A stretch of DNA of 63,008 nucleotides, counting the filler, from Stramenopiles sp. TOSAG23-6 (Eukaryota): NCBI GenBank assembly GCA_900128565.1. It is 50 parts of 50 records of this genome, joined end to end, with 100 filler letters (N's around TTAATTAATTAA, not from the genome) between each part and the next. Parts side by side here need not be neighbours in the genome. Positions count along the whole stretch, not along the records: positions 30,415 to 31,577 come from LT639564.1; 49 more parts are not named here. One strand, 5' to 3'. Positions within the stretch are counted from its first letter, which is position 1; each line of letters begins with the position of its first letter. Under the pieces are notes generated by a model that was not told the DNA's origin, did no database searches, and was given only the letters and a program-made list of their open reading frames with translations. A program made the position numbers and the translations under genes. Shown here piece after piece: positions 9,579 to 59,124 of this stretch.

Positions 9579-10253
9579 TTTTATTATATATAAATTCGAA
9601 ATTCGTTAGGTACAAAATTTGGTACGAAAAAATATTATCATGATTTTATTATATATAAAGCGTTCACTNNNNNNNNNNNNNNNNNNNNNNNNNNNNNNNN
9701 ACATGTACGAACTGTATTTAAATCTATGAGATATTTTACACGTGCACTTATTGCTTCTTTTGCATATTTTAATTGAAGTAAAAGTTCTTCTCGACTCTGT
9801 TCAACTAATGGAGTTTTCGTTGGATTTATTAGACTTACTGGACTCTTTAATGGATTTCTTGGTTTATCTTTAATCTTTTGCTGTGGTAAATCATGTATAC
9901 TCTTCCTCACAGATGTTTTACTACTGTACATTTCATTAATTGCAGTATTTATAGATATCTGCTTTTCAGGCTCTAAAGTAGGTTTGCAGAGGTATTTGTA
10001 CGGCCAGTAACACTCATTCTTATCTAAATTTCCATCTATCTCGCGCAAAGCTTTTTCAAACGNNNNNNNNNNNNNNNNNNNNNNNNNNNNNNNNNNNNNN
10101 NNNNNNTTAATTAATTAANNNNNNNNNNNNNNNNNNNNNNNNNNNNNNNNNNNNNNNNNNNNGTTTTATTTTTTTGAATTTCGAATTTTTTTTTTCGTAC
10201 CAAATTTTGTACCTAACAAATTTTACAAACAAAAATATTTTTTCACAATACAT

Positions 10254-25417: not shown

Positions 25418-26439
25418 GTATGCTCGGTCAGTCATATAGTTCAAAATTTTCACCTTGGTTGGCTACTGGTTGTTTATCTCCGCGATTTGTGTATCATGTA
25501 TGTTTTTTATTTTTTATTTCGATTCTTTTTTCATAGTAAAATATGTACCTAACAAAATTTTAAAATTTTGATGTACTGTTCTTTCATTTTTTTTTTATCT
25601 CCGTGATTTGTTCTTCAAGTATGTTTCTTTGAATTATTTTTTGGTATAAAGCATTTTGTATCTAACAAAAACAAAAACAAAAATATGTTTTCACAATATA
25701 TGAGTGTAAGCGATATGAAGCTCATCGTGTGAAAAATAAGTCTACATACTGGCTCGGAGGTTTTGAAATGCTTGTTCGTGATTATTTTCAGTTTCAAGCT
25801 GTCCGACTGGGTGACTCCATTTTCAAATTAGGAGGTCCTTGTGCAGCTTTGAATATTAAAAGTCAGGGAAATAATGATTGGTCAGGATCAACAGAAGATT
25901 TCGTTCGGTGGAAAGAAGGCCGAACAGGATGGCCACTCGTAGATGCGAATATGTACGTTTTCCTTTTCATTTGAACGTCTTATTTTTTTTTTCTATGTTT
26001 TTCTATGAAAAAATTAAAAAAAAAAAAATGTTTTTAACCCATTTCGAATGTCTATTTTTTTTTCACAAGATATGCGAGAATTATTAGCTACAGGGTTTAT
26101 GTCAAATAGAGGACGACAAAATGTTGCTAGTTTTTTAATATTAGATTTAAAAGTAGACTGGCGTTTAGGCGCTGAGTGGTTTGAGGAACAACTTCTGGAT
26201 CATGTATTTTTTCATCATGCAGGTTCAACTTTTTTTTTTTTTTTCCGTATGAATTTAAAATTTTTTTTTTTGTATATGTATGAAATTTCATACTAAATAA
26301 TTTAATCAATTACAATTTTTTGAAATATTTTTTCACAATATATGATCCTGCATCAAATTGGGGTAATTGGGTCGCCGCAGCAGGTTTATTGGGAGGTCGA
26401 CTCAATAAATTTAATATTTTGAAACAGTCCAAACAATAT
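25418..26439 (+). CDS. Cryptochrome DASH FAD-binding domain, four visible exons
   Basis: [33 protein letters not shown]...STYWL...RDYF...[36 protein letters not shown]...[13 protein letters not shown]. Confidence 0.93.
25498..25701 (+). mobile_element. Compound introner-family intron, GT...AT
   Basis: TAT CAT|GTATGT...two GTA(C/T)CTAAC modules...CACAATATAT|GAG TGT. Confidence 0.85.
25953..26073 (+). mobile_element. Diverged introner-family intron, GT...AT
   Basis: GCG AAT AT|GTACGT...CACAAGATAT|G CGA GAA restores DANMREL. Confidence 0.85.
26204..26343 (+). mobile_element. Introner-family intron, GT...AT
   Basis: GAT CAT|GTATTT...CACAATATAT|GAT CCT restores [13 protein letters not shown]. 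Confidence 0.85.
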
Positions 26440-26678
26440 GTATGTGTTATTTTTTTTTCAATTTTGAATTTATTTTTCGTACGAAATTTTGTACCTAACG
26501 AATTTTTTTTTGAAATATTTTTCNNNNNNNNNNNNNNNNNNNNNNNNNNNNNNNNNNNNNNNNNNNNTTAATTAATTAANNNNNNNNNNNNNNNNNNNNN
26601 NNNNNNNNNNNNNNNNNNNNNNNCGTACGAAATTTTGTACCTAACGTTTTTTTTTTCAAATATTTTTCCAAAATACAT

Positions 26679-30313: not shown

Positions 30314-30466
30314 ANNNNNNNNNNNNNNNNNNNNNNNNNNNNNNNNNNNNNNNNNNNNTTAATTAATTAANNNNNNNNNNNNNNNNNNNNNNNNNNNNNN
30401 NNNNNNNNNNNNNNCAAAATTTCGTACGAAAAATAAATTCGAAATTGAAAAAAAAATAAAACATAC

Positions 30467-31525
30467 ATACAGTACGAAAGGAGAGATAGAATTTACTCAT
30501 GATTTCGCCAGAATATAAACTTTCAATACCATCATCGCCAACATTTGCTACCATTCCAGCTTGTATTAATTGTTTTAAAGATTCTAATGCGATATTATTG
30601 GTAAGAGCAGAAGCTTCACTTGGCTTCTTTTTACACAATCGAATGTAGTAAAATGTACTTTTCAACCAGTCGATGTATTTTGGAAAAATATTTCAAAAAA
30701 AAATCGTTAGGTACAAAATTTCGTATGAAAAAAATTCGAATTTGAAAAAAAAATAAAACGTACATGACGTCACCCACAGATTGTAATGTCCCTAATGCAA
30801 TTTCTGCATTAATACATTCGGCTATTTTTGGATAAAGTTTACTTTCGATTGTATATTGTCCATTCGCAAGATTTTCGTATCGTTGTTTTGTACTTGAACG
30901 AGTCATAATTATAGCAGTACCACTGGTATCAAATTGAGGACGCCCAGCTCTTCCTAGCATTTGTAATACCGCTGATGGATCATACTCAACATGTATTTCG
31001 GAAATATATTTCAAAAAAAAACCCTTAAATTTGTTAGGTACAAAATTTCGTACGAAAAAAACAATTTCAAATTTGAAAAAAAGTAAAACATACATATCCT
31101 CCTTCTGATTGACCTTTCCATTGCTCTGTTCCTTTAATAATAACAGTATGAGCTGGAAGATTCACGCCCATGGCCAAAGTTGTAGTTGTTGCAAGAACTT
31201 TTATCTGTCGTGATCGAAATAAGTCTTCCACAATATTCCGATTATGTATTGTGAAAACAAAAAAAAAAAACTAAAATTTGTTAGGTACGGAATTTCGTAC
31301 CAAAAAAAATTATAATTCATGATGAAAAAACATACATGAGACGAAAGGCCTGCGTGATGAATTGCAAACCCGTGTTTAATCGCATCACTCAGTTTTGATT
31401 CATTTTGAATTCTTCCAGCAGCAATGGAAAGTGTTTTTCTATTTTCTGCAGACTTTGATGCCCCACGTGAAAATTTTTTGAGTACATTGACAGTATCTAC
31501 TGTTGATGATCTAGTACTACAGAAT
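30467..31525 (-). CDS. HFM1: MER3/HFM1 meiotic Ski2-like DNA helicase, four visible exons
   Basis: [21 protein letters not shown]...[22 protein letters not shown]...[27 protein letters not shown]...INAEIALGT...[14 protein letters not shown]...[10 protein letters not shown]. Confidence 0.88.
30673..30763 (-). mobile_element. Introner-family intron close to consensus, GT...AT, 91 nt
   Basis: GTC AT|GTACGTTTTATTTTTTTTTCAAATTCGAATTTTTTTCATACGAAATTTTGTACCTAACGATTTTTTTTTGAAATATTTTTCCAAAATACAT|C GAC TGG. Confidence 0.92.
30991..31093 (-). mobile_element. Introner-family intron, GT...AT, 103 nt
   Basis: GGA TAT|GTATGT...CGTACGAAATTTTGTACCTAAC...GAAATACAT|GTT GAG. Confidence 0.9.
31244..31335 (-). 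mobile_element. Introner-family intron, GT...AT, 92 nt
   Basis: TCT CAT|GTATGT...GTACCTAAC...CACAATACAT|AAT CGG restores HHAGLxxxxRxxVExLF. Confidence 0.9.
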
Positions 31526-31677
31526 ATGTATTTTGGAAAAATATTTCAAAAAAAAATCGTTAGGTACAAAATTTCGTNNNNNNNNNNNNNNNNNNNNNNN
31601 NNNNNNNNNNNNNNNNNNNNNTTAATTAATTAANNNNNNNNNNNNNNNNNNNNNNNNNNNNNNNNNNNNNNNNNNNN

Positions 31678-53145: not shown

Positions 53146-54171
53146 ATGGTCCAGCTAAAACACAACGATATTTATTCCATAAAAATAGTGGTGTTCCAGG
53201 TCGAATGCTAGAAACGCCACATGTATCATGAAAAAATATTCAAAACGAAAATTGTTAGGTACAAAATTTGTTATAAAAATTAATTTATACTAAAAACTCA
53301 AAAAAAAACTAAAAAAAAAAAAAACTCAAAAAAAAACTCAAAAAAAAACTCAAAAAAAAACTCAAAAAAAAATTGAAAAAAAACTCAAAAAAATAAAATT
53401 GAAATTCATAATAAAAAGAAAACACACGATATCGTAAATGATGTCTACCTCCAAATAACTTTAAATCGAGACACTGATTGACAGTTTTGTTATCGCAAAT
53501 AAACATGTATTAAGAAAAAATATTTTTTTTAGTAAAAACAATAGTTAGCTACAAAATTTTCTATGAAAAAAAAAAAAAGGTTTTGATGATGAAAAAAGTA
53601 CATAAATGCAACATTTTCTCTACTTGCTACATCATAATCTAAATGTCTATTCTGTTCATTATAACTTTGACTGTCTGGTTCATTATCACTTTGTAATTTC
53701 TTTTCCACAGGCTTATACTTAAGAGTGTTTTTCAAACTTTCAAAAGCTGTGAAAAATATTTTTTAACATAAAATGTTTAGGTACAGAATTTTCATACTAA
53801 AATAAAAAAATTGAAATTGATGACACAAACGTACGTGTTCGTTATCTGTAAGAATCCCAACTGAATATTTTTTTTTAACAATATCTATCCGACACAATGA
53901 CGCAAATTTCACGTATAGTGGATAATATTTCAAAAAATAAATCGTTAGGTACAAAATTTTCTAGGAAAAAATTTCAAATTAAAATGAAAACGTCTAAAAA
54001 AAATCGTAAAGGTACAAAATTTCGTATGAAAAAAAATAAATTCAAAATTGAAATGAAAACAAACACCTGTACGGGAAACTTTTTCATCCATATTCCCTTT
54101 ACAATATTTTCTTCTGCTTTCCCTTGAGCATTGTATGGTCCTTGTATAGTCTGATTAGTCTGATTATAGAG
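53146..54171 (-). CDS. Protein with two DCD-like domains, multi-exon
   Basis: LYN...IQGPY.A....EENI...W..KFPVQ|VKF and AFM|FICDNKT..QCL..KLFG...SIRPGTPLFLWN. Confidence 0.7.
53911..54064 (-). mobile_element. Introner-family intron with a GT duplication (GT...GT, or GT...AC in the shifted register)
   Basis: CAG GT|GTTTGTTTT...CACTATAC-GT|G AAA TTT restores FPVQVKF. Confidence 0.75.
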
Positions 54172-54336: not shown

Positions 54337-55491
54337 GTTATTATTGTTATTACTATTGTTATTATTACTATTGTTATTATTGTTATTACTAGTATTATTA
54401 TTATTATTATTATTACTATTGTTATTACTATTATTAGTCCAATCGACCAGAAAAGCAATGACATGCTCCCGTATTAAATTGACTACTTTATATACAACAC
54501 ATTCCTTTTCCCATACAGAACACTTTTTCATAATAAAATCTTCAATATTAGAAAGAACCTCTGTTCCAAGCCAATTACCAACAGAACTAACATTTATTTT
54601 TGGTCCTGATTTTTCTGGATAATATTCGCTAAATTGAACACTGAGTACTAAAGGAGGGACATGTACAACACGTATTGAAGACGCTTTCCAAGAAGAAAAT
54701 GTTGCATTTCCTAAATATTGATTATTTATAATTTTTGCAATCTCAATATTTTCCTTTTTCTTTTTCTTTTCAAGCAAGACTTCAGTCTTTGCTTCTTTTG
54801 CTAATTGTATTTGTTCCTCTGCATGTTGTTGGGCAAAATAAATAGTTTCTTGTTTATGATTGACTTTTGCCAAAGCTATTCTTGCATCTATATCTAGTGG
54901 TGACGTATAATCGAAATTAACCACTTGTTCTTCTACCTGTTTGTGCTCAATCAATGTGAAAAAATATTTCAAATAAAAAAAATCATTAGGTACAAAATTT
55001 CGTATGAAAAAAAAATCGAAATTGAAATGAAAACGTTCTTGGTTAGTTTTCAATCGCTCAATTTCACGAATTGTTTCTAATGCTTCCAAGTCAGCTACAA
55101 TTGCCCGATGTTCTGCGATCTCTATACATTTTGTGAAAATATTTTAAATTTGAGATTCTTTAGATATGAAATATAAGAAAAAAAATCATTAGGTACAAAA
55201 TTTCGTACCAAAAAAAAAAAATTGAAATTCATGATAAAAACGTACATGGATAAGTTATCTAAATCATAAATAGACATTCCTTCGCTCTGAAGTAATTGAA
55301 ACGTTTCTTCAAGCGAAAATAACTTTTCTTGAGCTTCTAAAAGAGGAACATTTGTTTGTTTATTTTGTTTCATATTCTTTTGTGCATTATTATTTTGTGT
55401 CATGGCTTGCTTTGACTCCACTGGAACTGCCACACTTTGCTTTGACTCCACTGGAACTGCCACACTTTGCTTTGACTCCACTGGAACTGCC
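54337..55491 (-). CDS. RWD-domain protein fragment (RNF14-like); intron at 55124-55245 (GT...AT)
   Basis: DLEALETI...VVHVPPLVLSVQFSEYYP...P.I.V....WL...ECVVYKVVNLIREH. Confidence 0.7.
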
Positions 55492-55591: not shown

Positions 55592-56746
55592 GTTATTATT
55601 GTTATTACTATTGTTATTATTACTATTGTTATTATTGTTATTACTAGTATTATTATTATTATTATTATTACTATTGTTATTACTATTATTAGTCCAATCG
55701 ACCAGAAAAGCAATGACATGCTCCCGTATTAAATTGACTACTTTATATACAACACATTCCTTTTCCCATACAGAACACTTTTTCATAATAAAATCTTCAA
55801 TATTAGAAAGAACCTCTGTTCCAAGCCAATTACCAACAGAACTAACATTTATTTTTGGTCCTGATTTTTCTGGATAATATTCGCTAAATTGAACACTGAG
55901 TACTAAAGGAGGGACATGTACAACACGTATTGAAGACGCTTTCCAAGAAGAAAATGTTGCATTTCCTAAATATTGATTATTTATAATTTTTGCAATCTCA
56001 ATATTTTCCTTTTTCTTTTTCTTTTCAAGCAAGACTTCAGTCTTTGCTTCTTTTGCTAATTGTATTTGTTCCTCTGCATGTTGTTGGGCAAAATAAATAG
56101 TTTCTTGTTTATGATTGACTTTTGCCAAAGCTATTCTTGCATCTATATCTAGTGGTGACGTATAATCGAAATTAACCACTTGTTCTTCTACCTGTTTGTG
56201 CTCAATCAATGTGAAAAAATATTTCAAATAAAAAAAATCATTAGGTACAAAATTTCGTATGAAAAAAAAATCGAAATTGAAATGAAAACGTTCTTGGTTA
56301 GTTTTCAATCGCTCAATTTCACGAATTGTTTCTAATGCTTCCAAGTCAGCTACAATTGCCCGATGTTCTGCGATCTCTATACATTTTGTGAAAATATTTT
56401 AAATTTGAGATTCTTTAGATATGAAATATAAGAAAAAAAATCATTAGGTACAAAATTTCGTACCAAAAAAAAAAAATTGAAATTCATGATAAAAACGTAC
56501 ATGGATAAGTTATCTAAATCATAAATAGACATTCCTTCGCTCTGAAGTAATTGAAACGTTTCTTCAAGCGAAAATAACTTTTCTTGAGCTTCTAAAAGAG
56601 GAACATTTGTTTGTTTATTTTGTTTCATATTCTTTTGTGCATTATTATTTTGTGTCATGGCTTGCTTTGACTCCACTGGAACTGCCACACTTTGCTTTGA
56701 CTCCACTGGAACTGCCACACTTTGCTTTGACTCCACTGGAACTGCC
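55592..56746. repeat. Exact duplicate of contig 54337-55491
   Basis: Same 1155-nt length and ends; identical ORF translations. Confidence 0.95.
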
Positions 56747-58195: not shown

Positions 58196-59124
58196 CATAC
58201 TATTTTCTGGAATATCAAATAAATTAGCTAATTTCTTCACTTCTTCAGAATCTATTCCAGGGAACATCAGCAGTAAGATCGATAAAAGCCGTTCCTTTAC
58301 AATATCAGGAACATTATGTGTTTTACAAAAATATGTCAAATTAAATTTTTATTGTAGGAAAATCGTATGAAAAATAAATTTTCTAGGAAAAAAATAAAAT
58401 TGAAATGAGTGATGAAAATAAGCATTAAAAAAAAAAATCTTTTTTGTTTTTTTGTTTTTTTGTTTTTTTGTTTTTTTGTTTTTTTGTTTAGGTATGAAAT
58501 TTCGTATGAAAACCAAAAAAAAAAAAAAATGAAATTCATGATGAAAACAAACATTTGCATCATCATCTTTTGTATTCATATTATAGTAACTATACGCGCC
58601 TCTACTAAACTCATCTTCACCCCATCGAGTCACATGAGAAAACACCAAAACACTTCCACATATAGATTTCGTGTTTTCATTACTTTTGTGAATTGGATGA
58701 TTTAGATTCATTTTGATCAATTTTTTTTTTTTCGTGGATTTCGTGGGATTAGGGTTAGGGTTTTCAAACATTTCTTTCAAACTACATAATGCTGCAATAA
58801 CAATTTCATTGTCAGTCAAATCTCTAATTTTAAGTGCTTCATTGCCAACAATTGATGCAGATAAGACAGGTATTCCTTTCAATTTATAATGATTTTCAAA
58901 TACACTCACTTTCAAATGTTTAGGGTTAGGGTTAGGGTTAGGGTTAGGGTGTATAGTAGACAGATTCTTCTCGAGTGTGTGAAGTTGGTTAGGGTTAATA
59001 TTGGCTAAAAAAGGAGCATTTTTTGGCCAAAAACAAGATTCAAATTGAAGAATAATTTTTGTGTATTCACACACACCAATACGTTGAATAGCATTTTGTT
59101 TTTTTATTGGAAGAGGTGGATGAA
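58196..59124 (-). CDS. Flavin amine oxidase family fragment (polyamine oxidase/LSD1-like); intron at 58316-58552
   Basis: FHPPLPIKKQNAIQRIG...TKIILQF...FW; VTRWGEDEFSRGAYSY. Confidence 0.85.
58921..58950 (-). repeat. Longest in-exon telomere-like tract, (CCCTAA) x5, encoding PNPNPNPNP
   Basis: TAGGGTTAGGGTTAGGGTTAGGGTTAGGGT inside the amine oxidase ORF. Confidence 0.9.

What the first reader, a model, noticed from the sequence alone, without database searches (positions are those of the whole stretch)
30671..30765. MITE-like architecture: imperfect terminal inverted repeats and a 2-bp target duplication that supplies the acceptor
Seen: the 5' end GTAY(G)TTTT...TTTCAAA mirrors the 3' end TTTGAAA...AAAATAC, and the unit is flanked by AT on both sides. 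About 25 of 30 AT-ending copies also have AT as the last two exon bases. Removing the element plus one AT restores the pre-insertion sequence exactly. Established: DNA-transposon introners in algae co-opt one splice site from their target duplication, normally AG or GT. AT target duplications have been described for ISL2EU-type (PIF/Harbinger-related) transposons. Inference: a non-autonomous element whose AT duplication serves as the 3' splice site. No transposase is present in this window.
Basis: partly seen in the sequence, partly recalled or inferred. Interest (0 to 1): 0.85.

Follow-up and report, generated by a model that had tools for sequence, protein, structure and literature searches.

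The report
Mobile short intron ending in AT
This is one copy of a very abundant ~90-base repeated intron in an AT-rich marine eukaryote that is cut out of the RNA exactly, using a normal GT start but an unusual AT end, and the AT end looks like a copy of the two bases it landed on.

Summary
The feature is real. It is a 91-nt intron on the minus strand, from GT at 30763 to AT at 30673, in an ASCC3/SLH1-type helicase gene. Contigs from public runs skip exactly this stretch. One polyA-RNA contig skips the neighbouring copy. The spliced protein aligns to homologues without a gap at this junction.

It belongs to a repeat family with 64 non-overlapping hits in 58 kb. Copies are up to 92% identical.

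Of 27 complete copies, 24 carry the same dinucleotide before the element and after it: 21 AT/AT, 2 TT/TT and 1 GT/GT. The three non-AT matches give permutation p = 3×10^-4. That is a 2-bp target-duplication footprint whose downstream copy ends the intron.

The "terminal inverted repeat" is weak. Only about 6 of the 10 terminal bases are complementary, the 30-nt arms match no better than shuffles, and both halves are T-rich.

No transposase was found, and no whole genome is held.

Best reading: an introner spread by DNA-level insertion at AT and spliced GT–AT by a U2-type spliceosome that passes over nearby AGs. The closest precedent is Fritillaria, where a duplicated triplet supplies AC/AT acceptors. 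I rate it a new variant of a known kind.

The parts
30764..30765 (-). Last two bases (AT) of the upstream exon; the upstream copy of the 2-bp duplication. They form part of the Ile codon AT|C.
   Evidence: The contig junction and the alignment place these bases in the mRNA.
30675..30763 (-). Element body, 89 nt: GTACGTTTT...CCAAAATAC. It matches the family model over positions 1-90.
   Evidence: nhmmer E=3e-16. It is 92% identical to the copy at +12500 and 89% identical to the copy at +24771.
30758..30763 (-). 5' splice site GTACGT. The family consensus is GTAYGTTTT.
   Evidence: All 42 curated 5' ends were anchored on GT. Most read GTAYGT, and variants such as GTTTGT and GTACAT also occur.
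30710..30727 (-). Conserved near-palindromic core CATACGAAATTTTGTACC.
   Evidence: 65 matches with at most 2 mismatches to the 15-nt core in the window. The function of the core is unknown.
30706..30710 (-). CTAAC, the inferred branch site, 34 nt upstream of the intron end.
   Evidence: A YTAAY motif is present in 26 of 27 complete copies, mostly 30-48 nt from the 3' end. The branch itself was not mapped.
30673..30674 (-). Last two intron bases (AT); the downstream copy of the duplication, used as the acceptor.
   Evidence: The X1 contig resumes at 30672. In 34 of 41 model-defined 3' ends the element is followed by AT.
30467..30672 (-). Downstream exon ([12 protein letters not shown]...) of the helicase gene.
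30766..30990 (-). Upstream exon ([21 protein letters not shown]...GDV) of the helicase gene.
   Evidence: PDB sequence matches to ASCC3 (8alz_B, E=9e-24), SLH1 and Brr2.
30991..31093 (-). Sister copy, 103 nt, AT|GT...AT, in the same gene.
   Evidence: Skipped by the X4 polyA-RNA contig and by the X1 contig.
31244..31335 (-). Sister copy, 92 nt. It contains TTTTAG 10 nt after the branch-like A, and this AG is not used.
   Evidence: The X1 contig junction.
30415..30466 (-). 5' part of a further copy, cut off by the contig end.
   Evidence: 20 of 100 contig ends lie at a copy.
31528..31577 (-). 3' part of a further copy, cut off by the contig end.
   Evidence: Its 45-nt 3' part is identical to that of the target copy and of the copy at 37835-37887.

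Best explanation
The stretch is one copy of an introner: a short, non-coding, high-copy mobile sequence that turns into a spliceosomal intron wherever it lands in a gene in the sense orientation.

The element (GTAYGTTTT ... CGTACGAAATTTTGTACC-TAAC ... T-run ... AAAATAC) brings its own 5' splice site, a branch-like CTAAC and a T-rich tract. It enters DNA at a dinucleotide, nearly always AT, and that dinucleotide ends up on both sides as a 2-bp target duplication. In the pre-mRNA the spliceosome cuts before the element's GT and after the downstream AT copy. Element plus one AT is removed and the original coding sequence is restored. The intron is therefore GT-AT, and the acceptor is supplied by the duplication.

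Shown:
- The family is repeated and recently copied.
- Excision is exact, in contigs from public runs and by homology.
- The flanking dinucleotides covary.
- AGs nearer the branch, or 4 nt upstream of the AT, are not used.

Inferred:
- Insertion happens at the DNA level with a 2-nt staggered cut, by a transposase supplied in trans.
- A U2-type spliceosome with relaxed or shifted acceptor preference does the splicing.
- CTAAC is the branch site.
- The boundary is GT-AT rather than the equivalent AT-AC register.
For: Repeat family:
- 64 non-overlapping nhmmer hits (E<1e-3) in 58,314 non-N bases, on 28 of 50 contigs. 20 of 100 contig ends fall at a copy.
- Identity among 11 full copies is 0.57-0.92. 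3 of 17 extracted 3' parts are identical over 45 nt.
- Thousands of contigs in four marine runs match the element: 7300, 4, 1060 and 1118 records laid.

Exact splicing:
- X1 record 1 joins 30672|30764, 30988|31092 and 31243|31336. X4 (polyA RNA) record 17 joins 30988|31092.
- The spliced protein aligns to ASCC3/SLH1 homologues with no gap at junctions 1 and 3.
- In a CRY-DASH gene, exons on either side of a family intron map to residues 306-380 and 382-424 of 2vtb_B. That leaves exactly the split codon AT|G between them.

Duplication:
- 24 of 27 complete copies have matching flanks, including TT/TT twice and GT/GT once (p=3.4e-4).
- 5' flanks are AT in 35 of 42 copies, against a background of 0.098.

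GT-AT register:
- The final AT is kept in 34 of 41 model-defined 3' ends, whereas the preceding AC is kept in only 26 of 41 (AT 9, others 6).
- In the 3 mismatched copies it is the upstream, exonic dinucleotide that differs (AC, TT, AA), and the 3' one stays AT.

AG bypass:
- 11 of 26 copies have an AG between the YTAAY motif and the AT end.
- For 31093 and 31335 the run contigs show AT being used.
- For 25953-26073 (CACAAG-ATAT|G), homology requires the AT.
Against: - The terminal inverted repeat expected of a cut-and-paste element is barely detectable, and no transposase or long element was seen. The insertion enzyme is unknown.
- Where the coding strand could be called, 33 copies lie in sense, 5 apparently opposite and 26 are ambiguous. 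An RNA-level, sense-specific mechanism would also give this pattern.
- 3 of 27 copies do not have matching flanks.
- The covariation rests on only 3 non-AT cases, whose ends I placed by alignment to the family model.
- The register (GT-AT, TG-CA or AT-AC) cannot be read from RNA for AT/AT copies.
- Run X1 is labelled 'DNA?' with no library on record. Its intron-free contig may be cDNA or, less likely, intron-free DNA. Only one junction is backed by a run recorded as RNA.
- There is a 1-residue indel 1-4 residues before junction 2 in the alignments to P0129 and P0123.
- The organism is unidentified, and the contigs may not all come from one genome.
Confidence: 0.6

Rival explanations
1. The same mobile family, but the true boundaries lie two bases upstream, giving AT-AC introns (or NN-AC in general). 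These would be removed either by a minor (U12-type) spliceosome or by the major one using the A...C terminal pair.
For: For AT/AT copies the mRNA is identical in both registers. AT-AC is an established intron class, and A-C terminal pairs are isosteric with G-G (PMC13326754, passage read). The element body ends in AC in 26 of 41 copies.
Against: - The body's last two bases vary (AT 9, GA 2, CC, AA, GC and TA once each, of 41), while the following AT is kept in 34 of 41.
- GTAYGT, a classical 5' splice site, would sit at +3 to +8.
- There is no ATATCCTT-like 5' motif.
- The branch-like motif lies 30-48 nt from the end, not the 10-20 nt I recall for U12 introns.
- In the 3 mismatched copies the variable dinucleotide is the upstream one.
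Confidence: 0.08
2. The family spreads at the RNA level: reverse splicing of excised introns into other transcripts, then reverse transcription and recombination. On this view there is no DNA transposition, and the upstream AT is a preferred reverse-splicing site rather than a duplication.
For: Copies with a callable host strand are overwhelmingly in sense (33 same, 5 opposite, 26 ambiguous). Both halves are T-rich on the sense strand. There is no convincing inverted repeat and no transposase.
Against: - Reverse splicing makes no duplication, so the TT/TT, TT/TT and GT/GT pairs would be coincidence (p=3.4e-4).
- Partial copies lie outside or opposite to ORFs (9593, 23239, 27501).
- Internal tandem duplications and a duplicated exon end plus element (25498-25701) point to events at the DNA level.
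Confidence: 0.12
3. DNA-level insertion without a dedicated transposase. The element would be captured at double-strand breaks and joined by end-joining, with 2-bp microhomology giving the direct repeat.
For: Short direct repeats with no real inverted repeat. One core fragment is flanked by direct repeats of about 25 nt (9593-9632).
Against: Break repair would give repeats of variable length and sequence, and ragged element ends. Here the ends are constant (GT......TAC) and the repeat is 2 bp and AT in 21 of 27 copies.
Confidence: 0.08
4. Not mobile at all: ordinary short introns that look alike because this lineage has long, strict splicing signals plus T-rich filler.
For: Diverged introns in the CRY-DASH gene keep mainly the 5' motif, YTAAY and the TTTTCACAATAY-AT end.
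Against: - Up to 92% identity over the whole 89 nt, including stretches with no known signal. Three loci share identical 45-nt 3' parts.
- The assembly breaks at copies, and word depth on the element is enormous compared with the exons.
- The flanking dinucleotides covary.
Confidence: 0.04

Closest known systems
Non-canonical, MITE-derived introns of the tunicate Fritillaria borealis / F. pellucida (Henriet et al. 2019, recalled, not read; review PMC11282704 and PMC13326754, passages read)
   Same: Massive gain of short repeated introns. A short direct repeat at the exon end is repeated at the intron end and supplies a non-AG acceptor. 3' AT is the commonest acceptor (34% in F. borealis, 44% in F. 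pellucida). Removal is by the major spliceosome.
   Different: In F. borealis the repeat is a 3-nt YAY triplet and the commonest classes are AG/AC and AG/AT, so the 5' end is also non-canonical. Here the repeat is 2 nt (AT) and the 5' end is a textbook GTAYGT. The host here carries a plant-type LRRNT_2/LRR protein, and its DNA ligase is closest (58%) to a protein that fuses an SNM1-type nuclease domain to the ligase. Both argue for a protist or alga rather than a tunicate, but the taxon is not established.
Introner elements of Micromonas pusilla, Aureococcus, dinoflagellates and others (PMC11282704, PMC12130899, passages read)
   Same: Short non-autonomous elements in thousands of copies. Each carries one splice site and takes the other from the target duplication. 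They are prevalent in marine organisms.
   Different: In those families the co-opted site is a canonical AG (or GT), duplications are 3 bp or longer, and inverted repeats are clear. The large surveys accepted only AG or AC acceptors and further inspected, and sometimes discarded, families with unfamiliar splice sites (PMC12130899 methods passage). A GT-AT family in an unannotated assembly would probably not have been reported.
ISL2EU group of the PIF/Harbinger-related (PHIS) DNA transposons
   Same: They make 2-bp target duplications, typically AT, and prefer AT-rich targets (PMC4122938, passage read).
   Different: Nothing else could be compared: no transposase, and no matching termini were examined. 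This is a resemblance in one feature only.
Introner elements / non-canonical introns of Amoebophrya, and nonconventional introns of euglenids and diplonemids (PMC7789003, PMC12621601, passages read)
   Same: Repeated introns with direct repeats across the boundaries and non-GT-AG ends, in marine protists.
   Different: Those have 3-5-nt repeats, 8-20-nt inverted repeats or strong end-to-end pairing, highly variable termini and often no U1-type 5' site. Here the 5' site is canonical, the fold is unremarkable (z=-0.58) and one acceptor dinucleotide dominates.

Membership tests
Introner (repeated, insertion-derived spliceosomal intron) | Many closely similar copies at unrelated loci | tested here: met
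   64 non-overlapping hits on 28 of 50 contigs. Identity up to 0.92.
Introner (repeated, insertion-derived spliceosomal intron) | Copies are removed precisely from mRNA | tested here: met
   3 complete copies are skipped in the X1 contig, and 1 of them also in a polyA-RNA contig. Homology supports the junctions. The other copies were judged only by open frames.
Introner (repeated, insertion-derived spliceosomal intron) | Target-site duplication at the boundaries, one copy used as a splice site | tested here: met
   24 of 27 copies match. The non-AT matches give p=3.4e-4.
Introner (repeated, insertion-derived spliceosomal intron) | Lineage-specific positions, or presence/absence between individuals | not testable with these tools
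   No genome is held and no gene structures of relatives are available. The X1 intron-free contig is of uncertain library type.
MITE (non-autonomous cut-and-paste DNA transposon) | Terminal inverted repeats, usually 10 bp or more | tested here: not met
   30-nt arms give p=0.31 for the target. Only 2 of 10 copies reach p<=0.05 and one more is at 0.058. The first 10 bases match at 6 of 10.
MITE (non-autonomous cut-and-paste DNA transposon) | Small, with no coding capacity, flanked by a fixed-length duplication | tested here: met
   Introns of 91-246 nt, flanked by 2-bp repeats.
MITE (non-autonomous cut-and-paste DNA transposon) | An autonomous relative with the same ends that encodes a transposase | not testable with these tools
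   No genome. None of the 30 largest ORFs has a transposase domain. Scans of public contig collections gave only chance matches.
ISL2EU / PIF-Harbinger-related transposons | 2-bp, typically AT, target duplication | tested here: met
   21 of 27 copies are AT/AT. The feature as published is in PMC4122938.
ISL2EU / PIF-Harbinger-related transposons | DDE transposase of that clade mobilising elements with these termini | not testable with these tools
   No transposase sequence is available.
U12-type AT-AC intron | Conserved 5' ATATCCTT and a branch site close to the 3' end (motifs recalled) | tested here: not met
   The sequence after the AT is GTAYGT. The branch-like motif lies 30-48 nt from the end in most copies.
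U12-type AT-AC intron | Invariant terminal AC | tested here: not met
   AC in 26 of 41 copies. The following AT is kept in 34 of 41.
Euglenozoan nonconventional introns | No U1-type 5' site; the ends are held together by stable pairing | tested here: not met
   GTAYGT 5' site. Fold z=-0.58, and 52 of 200 shuffles fold at least as well.

The most novel reading that the evidence does not exclude
In this uncultured marine lineage the major spliceosome has shifted its preferred acceptor from AG to (Y)AT. It skips AGs that lie in normal range, and it has co-evolved with an AT-targeting mobile element. As a result nearly every intron in the genome is an element-derived GT-AT intron whose acceptor is a target duplication. 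This would be a second, independent origin of the Fritillaria-type rewiring of splice-site rules, this time in a probable protist and with the 5' site left canonical.
Probability: 0.3. Interest if true: 0.8.

Novelty: new variant of a known kind. Interest (0 to 1): 0.62.

Why it matters
Introners are the best-documented route to new introns, and a central question is how far the spliceosome bends to accommodate them. Here the element supplies a textbook donor and branch but leaves the acceptor to a 2-bp AT duplication. In a conserved gene the cell uses that AT even when an AG lies 4 nt upstream.

If this holds genome-wide, it gives a clean natural system for studying acceptor choice. Only one splice signal is changed, there are thousands of near-identical test cases, and rare TT, GT and AG variants are available for comparison. 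It would also show that transposon target preference can set a lineage's splice-site code.

There is a practical warning too. Gene finders and introner surveys that accept only AG/AC acceptors will miss such genomes, and short-read assemblies of them shatter at every intron.

Tried and rejected
- Whole-genome route: no genome is held for this window.
One contig was laid instead.
- Public collections. The 19-nt core pattern found 3 loci in metagenome contigs and 1 in genome contigs. All lack the family's ends, so they are chance matches. Two patterns found 0 in viral contigs. No extra copies or long elements were obtained.
- Rfam and tRNA scans of the window found nothing, so no snRNA evidence is available.
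- Taxon. The protein atlas, two homology searches and a cluster look-up gave no close named relative. The best DNA-ligase hit is 58% identical, to an unnamed EukProt protein. The organism stays unidentified.
- A brute-force donor/acceptor search by open frames was useless, because the T-rich element is often open in frame.
- A 180-nt ORF test of host strand saturated and was replaced.
- The exon downstream of the target alone gave no meaningful PDB match.
- A copy with an 'AA' 5' flank at 25619 was dropped from the mismatch list after reading the contig. It lies inside a composite intron, next to a decayed duplicate of the exon end.
- The four AG-ending copies (22907, 25416, 50630, 57892) could not be used to test the duplication, because their 5' ends lie off their contigs.
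- Copies at 53834, 4452, 58552, 6820 and 55031 were left out of the 27 pairs because their 3' ends could not be placed.
- The duplicate contig 55592-56746 is identical to 54337-55491 and was counted once.
- Literature. Three full-text searches found no paper describing GT-AT introners. None of the 15 papers listed contains 'GT-AT'. Supplements were not seen, and those of the Fritillaria and introner surveys could list such classes.
Full report
**What the window is.**
The 63,008 bases are not one locus. They are 50 contigs of 1173 down to 1152 nt, sorted by length and joined by N44-TTAATTAATTAA-N44 linkers. No whole genome is held. GC content is about 25-37% in most 2-kb bins.

The stretch around the finding is held best by seawater metagenome and metatranscriptome runs, and by small 2015 runs of a coded 'organism A'. 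So the source is a marine eukaryote with a very fragmented assembly.

Its genes are ordinary eukaryotic housekeeping genes: DNA ligase, phage-type RNA polymerase, VPS13, Sen54, kinases, CRY-DASH and a plant-type LRRNT_2/LRR protein.

The taxon could not be fixed. The best DNA-ligase relative is 58% identical, an unnamed EukProt protein that fuses an SNM1-type nuclease domain to the ligase.

**The feature.**
On the minus strand the sequence reads ...GGTGACGTC-AT|GTACGTTTTATTTTTTTTTCAAATTCGAATTTTTTTCATACGAAATTTTGTACCTAACGATTTTTTTTTGAAATATTTTTCCAAAATAC|AT|CGACTGG....
- The element body is 30763..30675.
- AT stands on both sides, at 30765-64 and 30674-73.

**It is an intron and it is removed exactly.**
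Public contigs were laid on the contig 30415-31577.
- A 5,243-nt contig of run X1 matches four exon pieces contiguously, with 0-2 mismatches each. It skips 30673-30763 (91 nt), 30989-31091 (103 nt) and 31244-31335 (92 nt), and it starts and stops where two further partial copies begin.
- X1 is labelled 'DNA?' with no library on record. An mRNA-derived contig is the simplest reading. An intron-free DNA allele is the alternative.
- A 223-nt contig of run X4, recorded as polyA RNA-Seq, independently joins 30988|31092 with no mismatch.

The four exons joined in a script give an open 256-aa protein that aligns to ASCC3/SLH1-type helicases.
- At the target junction (…[13 protein letters not shown]…) and at junction 1 there is no gap.
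- Near junction 2 the two best homologues have a 1-residue indel 1-4 residues upstream, in a variable loop.

**It is a repeat family.**
- A 15-nt core motif has 65 matches (at most 2 mismatches) in the window.
- A profile built from 8 clean copies finds 105 hits at E≤1 and 64 non-overlapping hits at E<1e-3. These lie on 28 of 50 contigs, and 20 of 100 contig ends lie at a copy. The assembly evidently breaks at the repeat.
- Full copies are 57-92% identical. The target is 92% identical to +12500 and 89% to +24771. Three loci share an identical 45-nt 3' part.
- In the laid runs, word depth on the element is thousands of times that on the exons, and 7300, 4, 1060 and 1118 contigs matched. The tool warns that this is not a copy number, but it fits a very abundant repeat.
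- More diverged members occur too. The CRY-DASH gene on contig 25360-26523 has four introns of this kind.

I found no intron in the window that is clearly outside the family.

**The flanking dinucleotides.**
- I curated 42 5' ends, anchored on the family's GT. The two exon bases before them are AT in 35, TT in 3, AC in 2, GT in 1 and AA in 1.
- Of 41 3' ends placed by the profile alone, the two bases after the body are AT in 34, AG in 3, TT in 2, AA in 1 (a doubtful alignment) and CA in 1 (an alignment offset by one; read by eye it is AT).
- For 27 copies both ends are readable. Of these, 21 are AT/AT, 2 TT/TT and 1 GT/GT. Three do not match (AC/AT, TT/AT, AA/AT).
- AT makes up 9.8% of dinucleotides in the window. 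All three non-AT 3' dinucleotides coincide with the same dinucleotide upstream, and shuffling the 3' labels reaches this in 0.03% of 200,000 trials.

This is a DNA-level statement that does not depend on where splicing occurs. It is the signature of a 2-bp target duplication.

Caveats:
- The test rests on three informative copies.
- I placed their ends by alignment to the family.
- One mismatch (34932) has a canonical AG 3 nt upstream of the AT that would splice in frame.

**Which register?**
For AT/AT copies GT-AT, TG-CA and AT-AC give the same mRNA. Three observations favour GT-AT.
1. The final AT is better kept (34 of 41) than the AC before it (26 of 41; otherwise AT, GA, CC, AA, GC, TA).
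2. In the three mismatched copies the upstream, exonic dinucleotide is the one that varies.
3. GTAYGT is a classical U1/U6-type donor and would otherwise sit at +3.

U12-type features are absent. There is no ATATCCTT-like start, and the YTAAY motif (26 of 27 copies, usually TACCTAAC) lies mostly 30-48 nt from the end.

**AT is chosen over AG.**
- 11 of 26 copies have an AG between the branch-like motif and the AT end.
- In 31093 and 31335 that AG lies 10 nt after the branch-like A, and the laid contigs show the AT being used. That may simply be too close to the branch.
- The CRY-DASH intron 25953-26073 is more telling. It ends TTTTCACAAG-ATAT|GCGAG, with an AG 32 nt from the motif and 4 nt before the AT.
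- The exons on either side align to residues 306-380 and 382-424 of CRY-DASH chain 2vtb_B, and to 269-343 and 345-387 of 1np7_A. That leaves exactly one residue, the split codon AT|G = Met. Use of the AG would add 4 nt and break the frame.

This is homology evidence, not RNA evidence.

**The 'MITE-like inverted repeat'.**
- ATGTA...TACAT is self-complementary, and TTTCAAA/TTTGAAA pair in the target copy.
- Statistically, though, the 30-nt arms match no better than shuffles (p=0.31 for the target; above 0.05 in 8 of 10 copies).
- Only the first 10 bases show an excess (6 of 10, p=0.025).
- The fold energy is ordinary (z=-0.58).
- The subterminal pair is not kept in diverged copies.
- The sense strand is 52% T and 30% A across both halves, which rules out long complementary arms.

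So the element has at most about 6-7 bp of terminal symmetry.

**Orientation.**
Where the host strand could be called, 33 copies are in sense, 5 opposite and 26 ambiguous.
- Reading the five by eye, one (25192) is in fact in sense (ORF list).
- The other four are partial copies in non-coding or uncertain context.

This pattern fits selection against unspliceable antisense insertions. It also fits an RNA-level mechanism, which is why that rival keeps some weight.

**Transposase.**
None of the 30 largest ORFs has a transposase domain. Scans of viral, metagenome and prokaryote contig collections gave nothing beyond chance matches. Whether an ISL2EU-type enzyme moves the family is untested. Such enzymes make 2-bp, typically AT, duplications (PMC4122938, passage read).

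**Comparison with what is known.**
Introners that borrow a splice site from their target duplication are established in Micromonas, Aureococcus, dinoflagellates and many others (PMC11282704, PMC12130899, passages read). In those cases the borrowed site is canonical.

The nearest precedent is Fritillaria.
- A YAY triplet at the exon end recurs as the last three intron bases.
- AG/AC and AG/AT are the commonest classes.
- 3' AT is the commonest acceptor in F. borealis (34%) and F. pellucida (44%) (PMC13326754 and PMC11282704, passages read).

The present family differs in three ways: a 2-bp AT repeat, a fully canonical donor, and apparently a non-tunicate host.

Amoebophrya introners and euglenozoan nonconventional introns differ more. 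They have long inverted repeats or end pairing, and variable termini (PMC7789003, PMC12621601, passages read).

Three full-text searches found no description of GT-AT introners. Supplements were closed and could hold intron-class tables that bear on this.

**Verdict.**
- The MITE/ISL2EU label is unproven.
- I rate it a new variant of a known kind, of solid interest, and limited mainly by the tiny and fragmented sample.

Noticed in passing
whole window; e.g. 710-721, 41164-41175, 58920-58949: Telomere-like (CCCTAA)2+ / (TTAGGG)2+ 12-mers occur 23 times in 58 kb, against 0.005 expected from shuffles. Most are exactly two units. From reading, many seem to lie inside long ORFs, where they read as Asn-Pro repeats. 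One run has five units.
   Followed up: partly
1-63008: The window is a concatenation of 50 length-sorted contigs joined by N44-TTAATTAATTAA-N44 linkers. Contigs 54337-55491 and 55592-56746 are 100% identical. 22 contigs carry no family copy, and some bins are richer in GC (up to 0.43), so a mixed origin cannot be excluded.
   Followed up: partly
25498-25701: A composite intron in the CRY-DASH gene. It contains a decayed duplicate of the last ~22 nt of the upstream exon, followed by a second element 5' end (at 25619). This is a tandem duplication of exon end plus intron start that is now spliced out as one 204-nt intron.
   Followed up: partly
25953-26073: An intron ending CACAAG-ATAT|G. Protein homology requires the AT acceptor, not the AG 4 nt upstream.
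   Followed up: yes
54955-55031 (identical copy at 56210-56286): A family copy that starts GAACG instead of GTACG and is open in frame with the flanking RWD-domain ORF. It may be a dead donor with the element now read as coding sequence.
   Followed up: no
20476-20641, 41417-41662, 53913-54064, 48260-48418: Introns with two to four tandem copies of the core-plus-branch segment. These are internal tandem duplications rather than nested insertions.
   Followed up: no
9593-9632: A ~40-nt fragment of the element core flanked by direct repeats of about 25 nt, apparently outside an ORF.
   Followed up: no
22907, 25416, 50630, 57892: Four family copies end in a canonical AG. Three read CCAAAATAT-AG and one reads CACTTTAC-AG. 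All have their 5' ends off-contig, so it is unknown whether AG is a duplication there.
   Followed up: partly
41957-42002: A 45-nt match to the palindromic core lies inside a long plus-strand ORF and is read as coding sequence (…NSLGTKFGTKKM…). It could be a chance match or an exonised remnant.
   Followed up: no
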